From positions 1 through 5,098 of the IMG/VR virus record IMGVR_UViG_2778261512_000011: 5,098 bases of DNA. One strand, given 5' to 3'. Under the pieces are notes generated by a model that was not told the DNA's origin, searched no databases, and saw only the letters and a program-made list of their open reading frames with translations. Position 1 is the first letter of the stretch. The number at the start of each line of letters is the position of its first letter. Of the stretch, positions 1,759-4,769 are shown in pieces. The stretch comes from a virus. Lineage: Duplodnaviria > Heunggongvirae > Uroviricota > Caudoviricetes. The translations under genes were made by a program, and so were the position numbers.

Positions 1759-2055
1759 ATGAAAACCTTACGTTGCATGGCCTACCAGCAGAACGGCGTT
1801 TACGTAGCTGCATGTTTAGACCTGTCATTGGCAGCGCAAGCAGATACTATGAAAGAAGCTGTAAACAAACTGGATGAGCAGATTAAAGATTTTTTCACTG
1901 AAGCGCTATCAGAGCCGGAATATGCAAAACAACTACTAAGTCGGAAAGCACCTTTATCTATGTGGCTTAAGTATTGGGTAATTGCATTTCAGGTTTTTGT
2001 CAGAAAACGAGGTGAAGCAAAACTCTTTGCTGAGCCTTGTGATGCTCATGCTTAG
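1759..2055 (+). CDS. HicB-like antitoxin candidate (98 aa; N-terminal HicB/UPF0150-type fold, no recognisable C-terminal DNA-binding domain)
   Basis: Seen in sequence: ORF with a GAGGAG Shine-Dalgarno at 1746-1751, eight nt before the ATG. Its N-terminal segment NGVYVAACLDLSLAAQADTMKEAVNKLDEQI follows the pattern of HicB N-domains (compare E. coli HicB GGYMVSFVDIPEALTQGETVAEAMEAAKDAL, from memory). It sits 11 nt upstream of a HicA-like ORF. Function is inferred from motif resemblance only. Confidence 0.6.
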   Translation: MKTLRCMAYQQNGVYVAACLDLSLAAQADTMKEAVNKLDEQIKDFFTEALSEPEYAKQLLSRKAPLSMWLKYWVIAFQVFVRKRGEAKLFAEPCDAHA

Positions 2056-2066
2056 GGTTACATTAC

Positions 2067-2351
2067 ATGTTCTTGAAAAAGCTTACTCCTTTGAAATACG
2101 ACGAGGTAATCAGGGGACTTAAGAAAATGGGGTTTGAAATGAAACCTAAAACAGGAACCTCTCACGAACAGTGGGTTCTCAAGAACAGTAAAGGAAAATG
2201 GGTGGTTACAGTTGATAAGCATCACGCCCCATTCTCCAGAGATTTAATAAAATCCATGGCTAAGCAAGCTGGACTGAAAGCTCGTCACTTTCATGCGTTA
2301 TGCAGAGGTGACGCAACGCTTGAGGATATAGGATTCCAAATCATTAGCTAA
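2067..2351 (+). CDS. HicA-like toxin candidate (94 aa; putative mRNA interferase with short N- and C-terminal extensions)
   Basis: Seen in sequence: residues 10-70 (KYDEVIRGLKKMGFEMKPKTGTSHEQWVLKNSKGKWVVTVDKHHAPFSRDLIKSMAKQAGL) align by eye to the HicA signature GW/GF ... G-S-H ... VTV ... H ... DL ... I ... KQAGL (compare E. coli HicA EFRRWLESQGVDVANGSNHLKLRFHGRRSVMPRHPCDEIKEPLRKAILKQLGL, from memory). The Shine-Dalgarno is weak, but the gene sits close behind the upstream ORF, consistent with coupled expression. Confidence 0.6.
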   Translation: MFLKKLTPLKYDEVIRGLKKMGFEMKPKTGTSHEQWVLKNSKGKWVVTVDKHHAPFSRDLIKSMAKQAGLKARHFHALCRGDATLEDIGFQIIS

Positions 2352-2530: not shown

Positions 2531-2593
2531 AACCATCTGCGGTGATAAATTATCTCTGGCGGTGTTGACATAAATACCACTGGCGGTGATACT
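2531..2593 (+). promoter_or_regulatory. Left operator and pL promoter: OL3 2531-2547, OL2 2551-2567, OL1 2575-2591; pL -35 TTGACA 2565-2570, -10 GATACT 2588-2593
   Basis: Seen in sequence: three 17-bp sites that, read on the other strand, are TATCACCGCAGATGGTT, CAACACCGCCAGAGATA and TATCACCGCCAGTGGTA, identical to lambda OL3/OL2/OL1 as I recall them. The hexamers are near-consensus with a 17-nt spacer and point toward N. Confidence 0.85.
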
Positions 2594-2632: not shown

Positions 2633-2663
2633 GGCTCTTAAAAATTAAGCCCTGAAGAAGGGC
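2633..2663 (+). promoter_or_regulatory. nutL (boxA 2633-2648, boxB hairpin GCCCTGAAGAAGGGC 2649-2663)
   Basis: Seen in sequence: GGCTCTTAAAAATTAAGCCCTGAAGAAGGGC in the pL leader. The boxB stem-loop matches lambda nutL; boxA begins GGCTCTTA rather than the CGCTCTTA I recall for lambda. Confidence 0.8.
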
Positions 2664-2773: not shown

Positions 2774-3097
2774 ATGGATGCACAAACACGCCGCCGCGAA
2801 CGTCGCGCAGAGAAACAGGCTCAATGGAAAGCAGCAAATCCCCTGTTGGTTGGGGTAAGCGCTAAACCAGTTAACCGCCCTATTCTCTCGCTGAATCGCA
2901 AACCGAAATCACGAGTAGAAAGCGCACTGAATCCGATAGACCTTACGGTGCTGGCTGAATACCACGAACAGATTGAAAGCAACCTGCAACGTATTGAGCG
3001 CAAGAATCATCGAGTTTGGTATAGCAAGCCAGGTGAGTTCGGTATAACTTGTCAAGGAAGACAAAAGGTTAAAGGGGAATCCATTCCATTGGCATGA
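2774..3097 (+). CDS. N: Antitermination protein N (107 aa)
   Basis: Seen in sequence: ATG at 2774 preceded by AGGAGAA; MDAQTRRRERRAEKQAQWKAANPLLVGVSAKPVNRPILSLNRKPKSRVESALNPIDLTVLAEYH... is the lambda N arginine-rich motif and N-terminal region. The track ORF from 2684 is an in-frame upstream extension through the leader and is not the gene. The last 45 or so residues differ at several positions from lambda N as I recall it. Confidence 0.93.
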   Translation: MDAQTRRRERRAEKQAQWKAANPLLVGVSAKPVNRPILSLNRKPKSRVESALNPIDLTVLAEYHEQIESNLQRIERKNHRVWYSKPGEFGITCQGRQKVKGESIPLA

Positions 3098-3105
3098 GGT
3101 ACGTA

Positions 3106-3975
3106 ATGAAGAAGATTGATTACAAGTCCATACCAAAACCAATAGACTCAGCATCAGAGCGAAAAAAACACAAAAAAGAGGCTGAAAAATTAGCAAATTA
3201 TATCAGTTTTATTAGAAACAATGCTCACGGCGATGGCGACAAGAAGTTGCTTTCAGATGCTCGGACCCAAGCGTTCGGTATACTTCGTAAGCAGATGCAA
3301 TATCGTCTTCATCCTGGCTACATAATTGAAATTCGCCCTACTGAAAGACAATTGTTCTTATTAAACTCTGTCTTTGACTTTGTAAACGTAGTTGGAGATC
3401 TTATCGACAGGTCTGTAGATAAGGATCCTGATACAAATAGTTTTCTTCTAACAAATAAAGAATACTTATATGGTAAATTCGGTATAAACGGATGGCAAAA
3501 ATATGTACGCTTCTTACGTGCATTCGTTGATGCGTATAAAAATTCCGACATGATTTATACATATTTGCCTGGTGGTGATAATTGTACGCTTTCGGCAGAC
3601 AATAGAATATTCATACCTGTACTTGGTCTTGGGCTGATTAATGCAGTAAATGAAAAAGATGTTATAATTGTTAAGCAGTGGCGAAAATATGAGGGATATA
3701 GATATCTGCCATGCTTTGATATATTAAAAATACAGAATAAATTCTATGTAAAAATTAAATATAAAGAAGATATTTTCTTCCTCAGAAAAAACATAGATCT
3801 TTTACAAGAACTTTCTGGTACAATAGATGTCATCTTAGGTTCTAGGTTTATAAAAGAACTGAAAGAAAGCAGGTCTTTCTCTCGTGTAGAGATAAGCGAG
3901 TCAGAGTTATGGGGTATATCAAATAATCCTGTAAACCACGCTCACCAACGAAACCCAAACAAAAAGTGGTCATAA
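3106..3975 (+). CDS. Hypothetical protein, AT-rich moron in the sieB/ral position (289 aa from ATG 3106; 293 aa if the ATG at 3094 overlapping the N stop is used); function unknown, candidate superinfection-exclusion / abortive-infection or anti-defence protein
   Basis: Seen in sequence: a long uninterrupted plus-strand ORF directly after N. ATG 3106 has a GAGGT Shine-Dalgarno 5 nt upstream; the alternative ATG 3094 overlaps the N stop as ATGA. The stretch is visibly much more AT-rich than the flanking lambda-like DNA (many AAA/AAT/ATA/TTT codons). No Walker, nuclease, HTH or transmembrane motif recognised. The functional call is inference from position only. Confidence 0.75.
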   Translation: MKKIDYKSIPKPIDSASERKKHKKEAEKLANYISFIRNNAHGDGDKKLLSDARTQAFGILRKQMQYRLHPGYIIEIRPTERQLFLLNSVFDFVNVVGDLIDRSVDKDPDTNSFLLTNKEYLYGKFGINGWQKYVRFLRAFVDAYKNSDMIYTYLPGGDNCTLSADNRIFIPVLGLGLINAVNEKDVIIVKQWRKYEGYRYLPCFDILKIQNKFYVKIKYKEDIFFLRKNIDLLQELSGTIDVILGSRFIKELKESRSFSRVEISESELWGISNNPVNHAHQRNPNKKWS

Positions 3976-4025
3976 CCCGCTCAGGCGGATTTCATTTTCA
4001 CGCAAACAACAGAATAAACACAGCG

Positions 4026-4057
4026 CTGTGTATTCATTCCAACGAGTGAATACACGG
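4026..4057 (+). other. Stable hairpin in the intergenic region (stem GTGTATTCA 4028-4036 / TGAATACAC 4047-4055, 10-nt loop; extendable by about 2 bp), possible RNA processing or attenuator structure
   Basis: Seen in sequence: a perfect 9-bp inverted repeat with 10-nt spacer, extendable with a G-U pair; no T-tract follows. Function unknown. Confidence 0.35.
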
Positions 4058-4117
4058 AGCAATGTCGCTCGTAACTAAACAGGAGCCGACTTGTTCTGAT
4101 TATTGGAAATCTTCTTT

Positions 4118-4143
4118 GCCCTCCAAGATGAGGGCGATTTTTT
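4118..4143 (+). terminator. Candidate intrinsic terminator upstream of ea10 (stem GCCCTC 4118-4123 / GAGGGC 4130-4135, loop CAAGAT, then GATTTTTTAT)
   Basis: Seen in sequence: a 6-bp GC-rich stem followed by a T-run, on the pL-transcribed strand between the orphan ORF and ea10. Likely read through by N-modified RNA polymerase. Confidence 0.5.
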
Positions 4144-4163: not shown

Positions 4164-4532
4164 ATGTCAAACATCAAAAAATACATCATTGATTACGACT
4201 GGAAAGCATCAATAGAAATTGAAATCGACCATGACGTAATGACAGAGGAAAAACTTCACCAGATTAATAATTTCTGGTCAGACTCTGAATACCGACTCAA
4301 TAAACACGGCTCTGTATTAAATGCTGTATTAATCATGCTGGCGCAACATGCTCTGCTTATAGCAATTTCAAGCGACTTAAATGCATATGGTGTTGTGTGT
4401 GAGTTCGACTGGAATGATGGAAATGGTCAGGAAGGATGGCCTCCAATGGATGGTAGTGAAGGAATAAGAATTACCGATATCGATACATCAGGAATATTTG
4501 ATTCAGATGATATGACTATCAAGGCCGCCTGA
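4164..4532 (+). CDS. ea10: Ea10-like early protein (122 aa)
   Basis: Seen in sequence: a 122-aa ORF with a GAGGA Shine-Dalgarno about 9 nt upstream, immediately upstream of cIII. This is the same size and position as lambda ea10 (established knowledge of the lambda pL operon order ...ea10-cIII-kil-gam). I cannot recall the Ea10 sequence residue by residue, so the identity is positional. Confidence 0.7.
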   Translation: MSNIKKYIIDYDWKASIEIEIDHDVMTEEKLHQINNFWSDSEYRLNKHGSVLNAVLIMLAQHALLIAISSDLNAYGVVCEFDWNDGNGQEGWPPMDGSEGIRITDIDTSGIFDSDDMTIKAA

Positions 4533-4604
4533 GCGCGGCGTTACCGCATACCAATTACGCTTCACTCGAGGCGTTTTTCGTTATGTATAAATAAGGAGCA
4601 CACC

Positions 4605-4769
4605 ATGCAATATGCCATTGCAGGGTGGCCTGTTGCTGGCTGCCCTTCCGAATCTTTACTTGAACGAATCACCCGTAAATTACGTGACGGATGGAAACGC
4701 CTTATCGACATACTTAATCAGCCAGGAGTCCCAAAAAATGGATCAAACAATTATGGCTATCCAGACTAA
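4605..4769 (+). CDS. cIII: CIII, inhibitor of FtsH-mediated CII degradation (54 aa)
   Basis: Seen in sequence: ATG 4605 preceded by AAGGAG (4593-4598); translation [54 protein letters not shown] matches lambda CIII. Not in the ORF track, presumably because it is below the length cutoff. Confidence 0.9.
   Translation: MQYAIAGWPVAGCPSESLLERITRKLRDGWKRLIDILNQPGVPKNGSNNYGYPD

What the first reader, a model, noticed from the sequence alone, without database searches (positions are those of the whole stretch)
3094..3975. AT-rich orphan ORF directly after N, occupying the sieB/ral slot
Seen in sequence: a 289-293 aa ORF starts at or overlapping the N stop codon (ATGA at 3094-3097; second ATG at 3106 with a GAGGT Shine-Dalgarno). 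No terminator separates it from N, so pL transcripts will enter it. Its base composition is conspicuously AT-rich against roughly 50% GC lambda-like flanks, which is the typical signature of a recently acquired moron. I recognise no domain in it. Established knowledge: in lambda this position holds ral (anti-restriction) and sieB (superinfection exclusion). Inference: it is a candidate novel exclusion/abortive-infection protein or an early-expressed anti-defence factor.
Basis: partly seen in the sequence, partly recalled or inferred. Interest (0 to 1): 0.8.

Follow-up and report, generated by a model that had tools for sequence, protein, structure and literature searches.

The report
TnpB-derived protein carrying Nun's arrest peptide
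The gene after N is not an orphan: it is a conserved, unstudied gene of phage 434 whose protein joins a domain that appears derived from the DNA/RNA-recognition half of the transposon nuclease TnpB to the short peptide that phage HK022 Nun uses to jam RNA polymerase, so it is most likely a new type of transcription-arrest factor.

Summary
The ORF is real: true start 3106, 289 aa, 8 nt after N, no intervening terminator, GC 0.35 against 0.42-0.49 in the flanks. It is not an orphan. It is phage 434 gene CPT_434_48 (99.9% nt identity), occurs in 83 of 5,426 complete E. coli genomes, and has 36-68% identical relatives in other Enterobacterales prophages.

The last 14 residues (VNHAHQRNPNKKWS) are identical to HK022 Nun residues 96-109, the peptide that threads into RNA polymerase and blocks translocation. 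All 12 full-length relatives keep the functionally implicated residues through synonymous codon changes, and the tail is the most conserved block of the protein.

Most likely function (inferred): a Nun-type polymerase-arrest factor aimed by a TnpB-derived domain instead of Nun's RNA-binding motif, expressed with N from pL. Target and phenotype are unknown. I rate it a new variant of a known kind, interest 0.72.

The parts
2565..2593 (+). pL promoter (TTGACA-17-GATACT), the only promoter-like site upstream of the ORF on this strand
   Evidence: lambda-type oL/pL sequence read
2649..2663 (+). nutL boxB (GCCCTGAAGAAGGGC), lambda type, which is the RNA target of canonical HK022 Nun
   Evidence: read; the hairpin is flagged; the identification as lambda nutL rests on my own knowledge
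2774..3097 (+). N antiterminator gene (107 aa, 434/lambda type); its stop overlaps the upstream ATG of the ORF
   Evidence: Pfam N36 E = 1.8e-26; annotated antiterminator in 434
3097..3100 (+). Shine-Dalgarno GAGG, 5 nt before the ATG at 3106
   Evidence: annotated as RBS in 434
3106..3975 (+). the gene: 289 aa plus stop (alternative upstream ATG at 3094 unlikely to be used); equals phage 434 CPT_434_48 and RefSeq WP_001299183.1
   Evidence: dN/dS about 0.25
3106..3300 (+). residues 1-65: N-terminal extension found only in the Nun-tail subfamily (two predicted helices); it contains the most variable, basic segment (residues 21-30)
   Evidence: AF2 model; entropy profile; absent from the distant relatives
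3301..3771 (+). residues 66-222: core domain resembling the TnpB/Cas12 REC lobe (WED beta-barrel with inserted helical REC domain)
3772..3930 (+). residues 223-275: low-confidence helices and a flexible linker, including the conserved motif ESRSFSRVEISES (residues 254-266, nt 3865-3903), which the distant relatives share
3931..3972 (+). residues 276-289, VNHAHQRNPNKKWS: identical to HK022/HK75 Nun residues 96-109 (RNAP arrest peptide); predicted disordered
   Evidence: structural role from PMC5386594
3930..4140 (+). DNA segment about 95% identical to the HK75/HK022 nun 3' end plus downstream spacer; the mosaic joint falls inside the ORF, just upstream of the tail codons
   Evidence: megablast hit 837-882 of the query
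3977..3999 (+). decayed remnant (4-bp stem, -6.9 kcal/mol, interrupted T run) of the terminator that follows the stop codon in other tail-bearing genes
   Evidence: strong hairpins in L005 and L003
4116..4147 (+). intrinsic terminator (8-bp stem plus T run) ending the N-ORF unit before ea10/cIII; annotated as terminator in 434

Best explanation
The gene encodes a two-part transcription-arrest factor.

Part 1 (shown by sequence): the extreme C-terminus is the HK022 Nun arrest peptide. [quoted passage not shown]

Part 2 (shown by structure prediction, fold search and profile comparison): the body is a basic, folded domain of about 220 aa whose core corresponds to the WED+REC lobe of TnpB/Cas12. 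In TnpB that lobe reads a short DNA duplex motif and holds the RNA-DNA heteroduplex. Here the RuvC/TNB nuclease lobe is absent.

Inferred mechanism: the TnpB-derived domain replaces Nun's boxB-binding arginine-rich motif as the targeting module. It docks on a nucleic-acid feature of particular transcription complexes, and a disordered linker of about 30 residues lets the tail enter the polymerase beside the upstream DNA fork and freeze it.

Inferred expression: the gene abuts N and has no promoter of its own in this window, so the protein is made from pL as an immediate-early product together with N.

Inferred role, held with less confidence: competition with other phages, or with co-induced prophages, whose transcription complexes it arrests. 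The resident phage's own lambda-type N/nut system is spared because the protein lacks Nun's boxB-binding ARM.
For: Tail:
- 14 of 14 residues are identical to Nun 96-109. PHROG 'Nun-like' matches residues 274-293 only, E = 7e-5. PDB 6alg_N: E = 9.5e-4 with the sequence, 4.7e-4 with the profile. hhalign, long family against short Nun-like proteins: 43 C-terminal columns, probability 97.6%, E = 3.5e-12.
- Only Nun 87-109 is ordered in the RNAP complex and it holds all known arrest determinants. N97, H98, H100, R102, K106, K107 and W108 make the contacts. N103 makes none. Removing the last 13 residues abolishes RNAP binding (PMC5386594). The segment is described as sufficient for arrest (PMC6391919).
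- In all 12 full-length family members at 41-68% identity, the equivalents of V96, N97, H98, A99, H100, R102, K106, K107 and W108 are kept, while Q101, N103, P104, N105 and S109 vary.
- In the 13 tail codons, 6-7 differ only synonymously and 3 non-synonymously between lineages.
- The tail is the most conserved block of the protein, 0.39-0.68 bits of entropy against 0.7-1.9 elsewhere.

Position:
- In a putL-type, N-less phage the homologue sits in the nun slot: cI, pL, putL, gene, terminator.
- Elsewhere it abuts N by 1-8 nt, as do most short Nun-tail genes.
- A terminator directly follows the stop codon.

Body:
- AF2 pLDDT is about 90 over residues 11-220, and the tail is disordered.
- Foldseek ranks Cas12f and viral TnpB-like proteins first, but weakly.
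- hhalign of a 36-sequence family profile against a 10-sequence TnpB N-half: 143 collinear columns, window residues 66-222 against TnpB 1-175, score 33.0, P = 3.4e-4. Controls: reversed 13.3; 100 column shuffles at most 21.5; 100 block shuffles at most 24.6.
- The domain is basic, pI 9.5, net +11.

Selection: dN/dS is about 0.25.
Against: - There is no experiment on this protein. RNAP binding, arrest and any phage phenotype are untested.
- Nun H93 and R94 contact upstream DNA, and R94A strongly weakens RNAP binding. They are not conserved here (NN, NS, DK, GS or GQ).
- Some members lack the terminal Ser whose carboxylate pairs with R102.
- In this lineage the tail codons and the downstream spacer are about 95% identical in DNA to HK75, so here the tail was exchanged recently by recombination.
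- No promoter that could express the gene in a repressed prophage was found. HK022 nun has its own constitutive promoter (my recollection of King et al. 2000, not read here). Classical lysogen-based exclusion is therefore not supported.
- The TnpB link is moderate, not conclusive: hhalign probability 38%, Foldseek E at best 0.02, no Pfam TnpB hit, and it rests on a predicted structure.
- The ligand of the body is unknown.
Confidence: 0.55

Rival explanations
1. Host shut-off. The tail works as in Nun, but the protein acts generally. Made at high level from pL early in lytic growth, it arrests unmodified host elongation complexes, while the phage's own N-modified (or put-modified) complexes are protected.
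For: Nun at high concentration arrests any elongation complex and is toxic when over-expressed; its Kd for a non-specific complex is about 300 nM (PMC5386594). The gene is co-expressed with the antitermination device in every lineage, either N or putL. No lysogen promoter was found.
Against: A conserved, folded domain of about 220 aa under purifying selection would not be needed for untargeted arrest. Protection of N- or put-modified complexes from the tail has not been shown; I found no statement of it in the papers read. Lambda-type phages are not known to need transcriptional host shut-off (my own knowledge).
Confidence: 0.15
2. Self-regulation. The protein arrests or terminates the phage's own early transcription, for example by limiting pL read-through or opposing N, and so tunes the lysis-lysogeny decision.
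For: Tight, conserved abutment to N. A terminator directly follows the gene. In L008 a short Nun-tail protein shares a 58% identical ARM with its own phage's N (E = 7e-10), so some tail proteins may bind their own nut RNA.
Against: The long family has no detectable ARM. It occurs next to very different N types and next to putL, so it does not track one nut specificity. HK022 Nun, the only characterised member, acts on a foreign phage.
Confidence: 0.12
3. Passenger tail. The Nun peptide is a by-product of mosaic recombination at a conserved linker sequence, and the protein's real activity lies only in the TnpB-like body, for example DNA binding or repression as in TldR.
For: The mosaic joint lies just upstream of the tail codons, and the DNA from there through the downstream spacer is about 95% identical to HK75. 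Distant relatives of the body work with a different C-terminus.
Against: The tail is retained in 12 of 12 full-length members at 41-68% identity, and in the more distant P0045, with synonymous codon changes and substitutions only at positions that are variable or make no important contact in Nun. It is the most conserved block of the protein. The distant relatives also have a strongly conserved extreme C-terminal peptide, so that position carries function.
Confidence: 0.1
4. One reading: a SieB-like abortive-infection protein, a Ral-like anti-restriction protein, or another anti-defence factor.
For: Only the position: sieB occupies this slot in related lambda-immunity prophages.
Against: No similarity to any SieB, Ral, defence or anti-defence model in Pfam, NCBIfam, PADLOC or PHROGs. 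No membrane segments are predicted in the model, whereas SieB is a membrane protein (my own knowledge).
Confidence: 0.03

Closest known systems
HK022 Nun transcription termination/arrest factor (P18683; PDB 6ALG)
   Same: The last 14 residues are identical, and the similarity extends over about 43 C-terminal columns. All residues implicated in RNAP and nucleic-acid contacts from N97 to W108 are conserved. Same genomic slot at the start of the pL operon, followed by a terminator; in L003 it follows putL exactly as nun does.
   Different: 289 aa with a folded domain, against 109 aa that are intrinsically disordered. No boxB-binding ARM. H93 and R94 are not conserved. It coexists with a lambda-type N/nut system, which canonical Nun would attack. 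No PNun-like promoter in this window.
TnpB (IS200/IS605 OrfB) and the Cas12 family
   Different: The whole NUC lobe (RuvC D-E-D, TNB zinc finger) is missing. There are only two cysteines. No TnpA gene or IS ends are nearby. No guide-RNA-like element was found (and inspection of the flanks). It has acquired a C-terminal effector peptide.
TldR, TnpB-like nuclease-dead repressors of prophages (PMC10705468)
   Same: A TnpB derivative domesticated by temperate phages of Enterobacterales to interfere with transcription.
   Different: TldRs keep the overall TnpB fold with a decayed RuvC domain, use an adjacent guide RNA, and block initiation by occupying promoters. This protein keeps only the REC lobe and carries a peptide that acts on elongating polymerase. 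Use of a guide RNA is unknown and doubtful.
Short Nun-tail proteins of other prophages (79-103 aa; L008, L023, L039, L043, L065, L069, L086 and P0015-P0044)
   Same: Same tail, same N-adjacent position, same terminator.
   Different: Their targeting part is an N-type arginine-rich motif of varying kinds, in one case 58% identical to the resident N. It is not a folded domain.
Lambda SieB and Ral
   Same: Occupy the same slot downstream of N.
   Different: No sequence or structural relation.

Membership tests
Nun-type transcription arrest factors (HK022 Nun) | Extreme C-terminal arrest peptide with N97, H98, H100, R102, K106, K107 and W108 | tested here: met
   VNHAHQRNPNKKWS is identical to Nun 96-109. 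These positions are invariant in 12 of 12 full-length relatives. Contacts taken from PMC5386594.
Nun-type transcription arrest factors (HK022 Nun) | N-terminal arginine-rich motif that binds boxB of nut RNA | tested here: not met
   hhalign aligns only the C-terminal 43 columns. The N-terminal leader/ARM comparison gives probability 2.3%, E = 0.021.
Nun-type transcription arrest factors (HK022 Nun) | Small (about 109 aa), intrinsically disordered protein | tested here: not met
   289 aa; residues 11-220 are predicted folded at pLDDT about 90.
Nun-type transcription arrest factors (HK022 Nun) | Located at the head of the pL operon (N/nun slot), followed by a terminator | tested here: met
Nun-type transcription arrest factors (HK022 Nun) | Expressed constitutively in the lysogen from its own promoter | tested here: inconclusive
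   No promoter-like site in the 300 nt upstream, even at lenient thresholds. A consensus scan cannot exclude a weak promoter, and no RNA data are available.
Nun-type transcription arrest factors (HK022 Nun) | Arrests RNAP translocation and excludes a heterologous phage | not testable with these tools
   Needs biochemistry and phage genetics.
TnpB/Cas12 (IS200/IS605 OrfB) superfamily | WED beta-barrel with inserted helical REC domain (REC lobe) | tested here: met
TnpB/Cas12 (IS200/IS605 OrfB) superfamily | RuvC nuclease domain with D-E-D triad | tested here: not met
   The alignment ends at TnpB residue 175. Only about 35 structured residues follow the core. No OrfB_IS605 Pfam hit in 13 members.
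TnpB/Cas12 (IS200/IS605 OrfB) superfamily | TNB zinc finger (CCCC) | tested here: not met
   The protein has two cysteines in total (translation).
TnpB/Cas12 (IS200/IS605 OrfB) superfamily | Guide (omega) RNA encoded at or after the 3' end of the gene | tested here: inconclusive
   No Rfam hit. The stop codon is followed within 1-25 nt by a terminator hairpin. Codon changes in the 3' end look protein-constrained. No dedicated covariation search was done.
TnpB/Cas12 (IS200/IS605 OrfB) superfamily | Association with TnpA or IS ends | tested here: not met
   The neighbours are N, ea10, cIII and cI in all lambdoid contexts.
SieB / Ral (occupants of this slot in lambda) | Sequence membership in the SieB or Ral families | tested here: not met
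   No hits in Pfam, NCBIfam, PADLOC or PHROGs.
Moron (autonomous promoter-gene-terminator insert) | Deviant composition, own promoter, own terminator | tested here: inconclusive
   Composition deviant. A terminator is present in relatives but decayed here. No own promoter was found.

The most novel reading that the evidence does not exclude
The protein belongs to an undescribed class of TnpB derivatives. These have shed the nuclease lobe, keep the nucleic-acid-recognition lobe, and carry short interchangeable C-terminal effector peptides. One branch carries the Nun peptide and would be a sequence-directed brake on elongating RNA polymerase, used in warfare between lambdoid prophages. The other branch ends in ...GGLPSLGK(R/K)R, with an unknown target. 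The linker motif (SFSRVEI) is native to this body family, and Nun has a similar FPRDVEKIE at the same place. HK022 Nun itself may therefore have arisen by fusing this family's C-terminal module to an N-type arginine-rich motif.
Probability: 0.3. Interest if true: 0.88.

Novelty: new variant of a known kind. Interest (0 to 1): 0.72.

Why it matters
Nun is the textbook case of a phage protein that freezes RNA polymerase, and only the single HK022 protein with its boxB-binding motif has been studied. This finding has four consequences.

- Nun's arrest peptide is a portable module spread across Enterobacterales prophages on many different targeting parts.
- Phage 434, a classical model phage, carries an unstudied version right next to N. 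The gene also occurs in prophages of EHEC O103, O111, O121 and O145 strains.
- The targeting part of this version appears to be a domesticated half of TnpB, the ancestor of Cas12. That would be another route by which temperate phages have repurposed TnpB to control transcription, and the first to act on elongation through a polymerase-plugging peptide.
- The hypothesis is directly testable with existing Nun assays, Nun-resistant rpoC alleles and 434 genetics. A domain that delivers an arrest peptide to chosen transcription complexes could also be of engineering interest.

Tried and rejected
- Pfam, NCBIfam and PADLOC on the ORF found nothing. Pfam on all 13 family members at E <= 10, and on 10 distant relatives, found nothing relevant.
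- The N-terminus (MKKIDYKS...SERKKHKKEAEKL) looked by eye like an N/Nun-type leader plus ARM. hhalign gave probability 2.3%, so I rejected this as unsupported.
- The first AF2 run with 3 sequences gave pLDDT 45 and was unusable. Only the 13-sequence run was used.
- Foldseek against the PDB and BFVD ranked Cas12f and viral TnpB-like proteins first, but none reached E <= 1e-3. The afdb50 library was unavailable.
- hhalign against a single TnpB sequence gave the right register but was not significant, E = 0.044. It became informative only with a 10-sequence TnpB profile and shuffling controls.
- A promoter inside the 3' end of N: none at 9/12, 8/12 or extended -10.
- nut- or put-like repeats in L003 by repeat search were uninformative. 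Direct alignment to HK75 revealed putL.
- Rfam found no RNA family near the gene.
- The whole window is not present intact in any complete E. coli genome; the best match covers 84%.
- The literature holds no discussion of this gene in the 434 genome announcement, and no paper combines TnpB, Nun and prophage.
- The tail-profile search in the 5.8-billion-protein set returned only short proteins. It did not list classic Nun or the long family, so it is not a census.
Full report
CONTEXT. The window is the immunity and early-left region of a lambdoid prophage, shown so that the leftward operon reads on the + strand. The order is cII and cro (- strand), oR, a lambda-type cI (873-1586), a HicB-like/HicA cassette in the rexAB slot (1759-2351), a GC-rich hairpin terminator, oL/pL (2565-2593), lambda-type nutL, N (2774-3097), the ORF in question, a spacer with a terminator (4116-4137), then ea10/DUF2528, cIII and kil.

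OBSERVATION. The ORF runs 3094-3975. Its first ATG overlaps N's TGA, and a second ATG lies at 3106 behind GAGG. No terminator separates it from N, and the base composition is lower than the surroundings: GC 0.346 and GC3 0.303, against N 0.488, cI 0.458 and the window 0.424.

The working start is 3106 (289 aa). Every homologue begins there, the PHROG profile starts at residue 5, and both the 434 and RefSeq annotations use it. In locus L005 the upstream ATG is followed at once by an in-frame TAA. Twelve close nucleotide variants give dN/dS of about 0.25, so this is a working gene.

NOT AN ORPHAN. The gene is 99.9% identical to CPT_434_48 of phage 434, whose depositors named it 'Nun C-terminal peptide-containing protein'. 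The genome announcement does not discuss it. Among 50,697 GenBank phage records, only 434 and 434B encode the body. Of 5,426 complete E. coli genomes, 117 have a match and 83 carry a full-length copy. These include EHEC O103:H2, O111, O121 and O145:H28, and the gene is annotated 'hypothetical protein'. A profile search of 5.8 billion proteins found only 14 clusters, all 286-296 aa apart from two truncated entries, from Escherichia, Hafnia, Pectobacterium and unnamed enterobacterial assemblies.

THE TAIL. PHROGs gave the first clue. Besides phrog_12139 (unknown function, E = 8e-206), residues 274-293 match the last 20 positions of the 'Nun-like transcription termination factor' family. The last 14 residues, VNHAHQRNPNKKWS, are identical to residues 96-109 of HK022/HK75 Nun.

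Kang et al. 2017 (PMC5386594) report the following. Only Nun 87-109 is ordered in the polymerase complex. This segment holds all known determinants of arrest. [quoted passage not shown] R102 pairs with the C-terminal carboxylate. K106, K107 and W108 contact the beta' subunit and DNA. N103 makes no important contact. Nun lacking its last 13 residues neither binds polymerase nor works. A review calls the segment sufficient for arrest (PMC6391919).

In the 12 full-length members of this family (41-68% identical to the window protein), the equivalents of V96, N97, H98, A99, H100, R102, K106, K107 and W108 never change, while positions 101, 103, 104, 105 and 109 vary. At codon level, 6-7 of the 13 tail codons differ only synonymously between lineages and 3 differ non-synonymously. 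The tail is also the least variable stretch of the whole protein. So the tail is under selection as a peptide and is not merely shared DNA.

There are caveats. H93 and R94 of Nun are not conserved. Some members end in ...KKW without the final Ser. In this particular lineage the DNA from about 3930 through the stop to about 4140 is about 95% identical to HK75, so the tail and the downstream spacer were recently exchanged with an HK022-like phage.

A PORTABLE MODULE IN A FIXED SLOT. A degenerate DNA pattern for the tail found 98 loci in IMG/VR. The carriers fall into three groups:
- classic Nun (112 or 117 aa);
- at least seven different short proteins (79-103 aa) with different arginine-rich N-termini;
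- the 289-290-aa family, including two further divergent lineages (L011 and L082).

A tail profile also retrieves short proteins from Providencia, Proteus, Photorhabdus, Serratia, Yersinia, Cronobacter and Pantoea.

Every tail gene examined is followed directly by a hairpin terminator, which has decayed to a 4-bp stem in this window. Almost every one, short or long, abuts an N gene by 1-8 nt. The long family follows lambda-type N (window, L005), a 104-aa N (L082), a Hafnia N_peptide-type N (L104) and an 87-aa N36-type N (L105). The exception is informative. In L003 and L093 there is no N gene. The leader instead carries a 95% identical copy of the HK022 putL antitermination RNA, and the 290-aa homologue sits exactly where nun sits in HK022. 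Profile comparison of the long family with the short ones aligns only the C-terminal 43 columns (probability 97.6%, E = 3.5e-12).

THE BODY. With a 13-sequence alignment, AlphaFold gives pLDDT of about 90 over residues 11-220 (pTM 0.69), while residues 247-289 are disordered.

The exhaustive HMMER search of 1.84 billion representatives added about 25 clusters of distant relatives, mostly 213-326 aa, that match profile positions about 74-220. That defines a core which begins with a beta-strand, continues with a helical bundle, and ends in a beta-rich part with one helix. This is the order Nakagawa et al. 2023 describe for the TnpB REC lobe: WED beta1, a four-helix REC insertion, then the WED barrel with a flanking helix, residues 1-176 (PMC10097598).

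I recovered the real ISDra2 TnpB residues 1-203 from PDB alignments and fetched nine phage TnpB N-terminal halves. I then ran hhalign locally with a 36-sequence family profile against the 10-sequence TnpB profile. It gives one collinear alignment of 143 columns, window residues 66-222 against TnpB 1-175, with score 33.0, P = 3.4e-4 and probability 38%. The motif pairs are:
- IIEIRPTERQ with VVRLYPNAAQ;
- AYKN with AYKNF;
- IFIPVLGLGLI with LKLPKLGWV;
- NKFYVKIKYKE with EGHYEASVLCEV.

Controls scored 13.3 (reversed), at most 21.5 (100 column shuffles) and at most 24.6 (100 ten-column block shuffles).

I conclude, with roughly 75% confidence, that the core is a TnpB/Cas12-type WED+REC lobe. The nuclease lobe is absent. 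The alignment stops at TnpB residue 175, only about 35 structured residues follow, the protein has two cysteines, and no OrfB Pfam model matches. The domain is basic, with pI 9.5.

A SECOND TAIL. The distant relatives share the body and the linker motif S-x-x-[YF]-[SA]-R-V-[DE]-[FI], which is SFSRVEI here. Instead of the Nun peptide they end in another strongly conserved C-terminal peptide...[EQ]-G-[RKW]-x-[VI]-x-G-G-L-P-S-L-G-K-[RK]-R. They occur on metagenomic contigs beside methyltransferase, HNH, DUF4365 and helicase genes, not in lambdoid immunity regions, and match nothing in Pfam or PADLOC. So the body family generally carries a conserved peptide at its extreme C-terminus, and the enterobacterial prophage branch carries Nun's. 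I could not identify the partner of the other peptide.

EXPRESSION. On the + strand, the only promoter-like site upstream of the gene is pL. Nothing appears within 300 nt upstream even at 8/12 matches or with an extended -10. The cI-hicBA transcript should stop at the 10-bp GC hairpin at 2350-2375. The supported route is therefore pL, immediate-early, probably coupled to N translation. L003 has an extended -10 candidate about 40 nt before its start, and L104 has a 9/12 site inside N, so lysogen expression elsewhere is not excluded.

MECHANISM. Shown: the Nun arrest peptide is present, at the extreme C-terminus, and selectively maintained; the body is a folded basic domain with a TnpB REC-lobe-like core; a flexible linker joins them; the slot is that of nun and N.

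Inferred: the tail enters the polymerase cleft as in Nun and blocks translocation. The body replaces Nun's ARM as the targeting device. In Nun, the chain leaves the complex near the upstream DNA fork and the RNA exit channel. A domain that binds duplex DNA, a hybrid or RNA could sit there.

The resident phage uses lambda-type N and nutL, which is exactly what canonical Nun attacks. A boxB-directed tail protein would be self-destructive here, which fits the absence of an ARM. The most plausible role is competition with other lambdoid phages or with co-induced prophages. Rivals are general host shut-off, self-regulation of early transcription, and a passenger tail. I weight them at about 0.15, 0.12 and 0.10.

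COMPARISON AND NOVELTY. The protein works like Nun in its effector, but it fails two defining features of the Nun family (the ARM, and the small disordered protein). I therefore file it as a new variant, not a member. It has the REC lobe of TnpB but none of the features that define a TnpB nuclease.

The closest precedent for a phage-domesticated TnpB acting on transcription is TldR (PMC10705468). TldR keeps the full fold, uses guide RNAs and blocks initiation. I found no paper linking TnpB and Nun. The only prior note on this gene is the GenBank product name.

LIMITS. Everything about function is inference from sequence and predicted structure. The TnpB relationship rests on a predicted model plus a moderate profile score. 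The ligand, the target and the timing remain open.

Noticed in passing
window 1759-2351: A HicB-like antitoxin (phrog_12841; weak DUF1902) and a HicA toxin (Pfam HicA_toxin, E = 8.4e-11) occupy the rexA/rexB slot after a lambda-type cI. A 10-bp GC hairpin terminator follows at 2350-2375 (-16.3 kcal/mol), which the scan tool did not flag.
   Followed up: partly
window 4592-4650: Rfam Lambda_thermo (cIII thermoregulator) matches at 88.5 bits. Ea10/DUF2528 lies at 4164-4532.
   Followed up: no
window 4028-4055: A 9-bp perfect hairpin (GTGTATTCA...TGAATACAC) in the HK022-like spacer downstream of the gene, conserved in HK75. Function unknown.
   Followed up: no
L043 (IMG/VR), upstream ORF plus 3251-3490: Two Nun-tail genes in tandem. 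The first (88 aa) joins a lambda-N-like ARM (MNSQEKRRERRKLKQQEWKKENPTLVG) to a tail variant, VVNHAHARDGKKKW. The second is 79 aa.
   Followed up: no
L008 (IMG/VR) 4824-5132 and the abutting upstream N: The phage's own N and the adjacent 102-aa Nun-tail protein share a 58% identical ARM over 36 residues (E = 7e-10). This suggests short Nun-like proteins arise by N duplication plus a tail, and may bind nut sites like their own.
   Followed up: partly
L009 and similar IMG/VR loci: A phage-21-type N reading frame abuts classic nun (gap 2 nt) and runs through the HK022 pre-nun leader. N and canonical Nun therefore coexist in phages with non-lambda nut specificity.
   Followed up: no
L003 2935-3010 and L093: An HK022-type putL RNA (95% identical over 63 nt) lies upstream of the 290-aa homologue, in a phage with a P22-like early-left region and no N gene.
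   Followed up: partly
P0048-P0075 (distant relatives; loci L108-L112): About 25 clusters share the TnpB-like core but end in a different, highly conserved peptide, ...EG(R/K)xVxGGLPSLGK(R/K)R. Two members (440-473 aa) have long N-terminal extensions. The partner of this peptide is unknown.
   Followed up: partly
window 3817-3840 (residues 238-245, GTIDVILG): Possible vestige of the TnpB RuvC-I strand (AGVDVGIK, catalytic D191), at roughly the right distance after the WED domain. The position is D or E across the family. AF2 confidence is low here. Not tested.
   Followed up: no
L035 and L077 (IMG/VR): Decayed copies of the long gene: a 5'-truncated 226-codon frame, and a 46-codon remnant that retains only the linker and tail.
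   Followed up: no
L107 (E. coli O103:H2 FWSEC0007) 12013-12882: An identical copy lies in a prophage with 434-type immunity integrated beside ybhC, with an IS3 element inserted between kil and gam.
   Followed up: no
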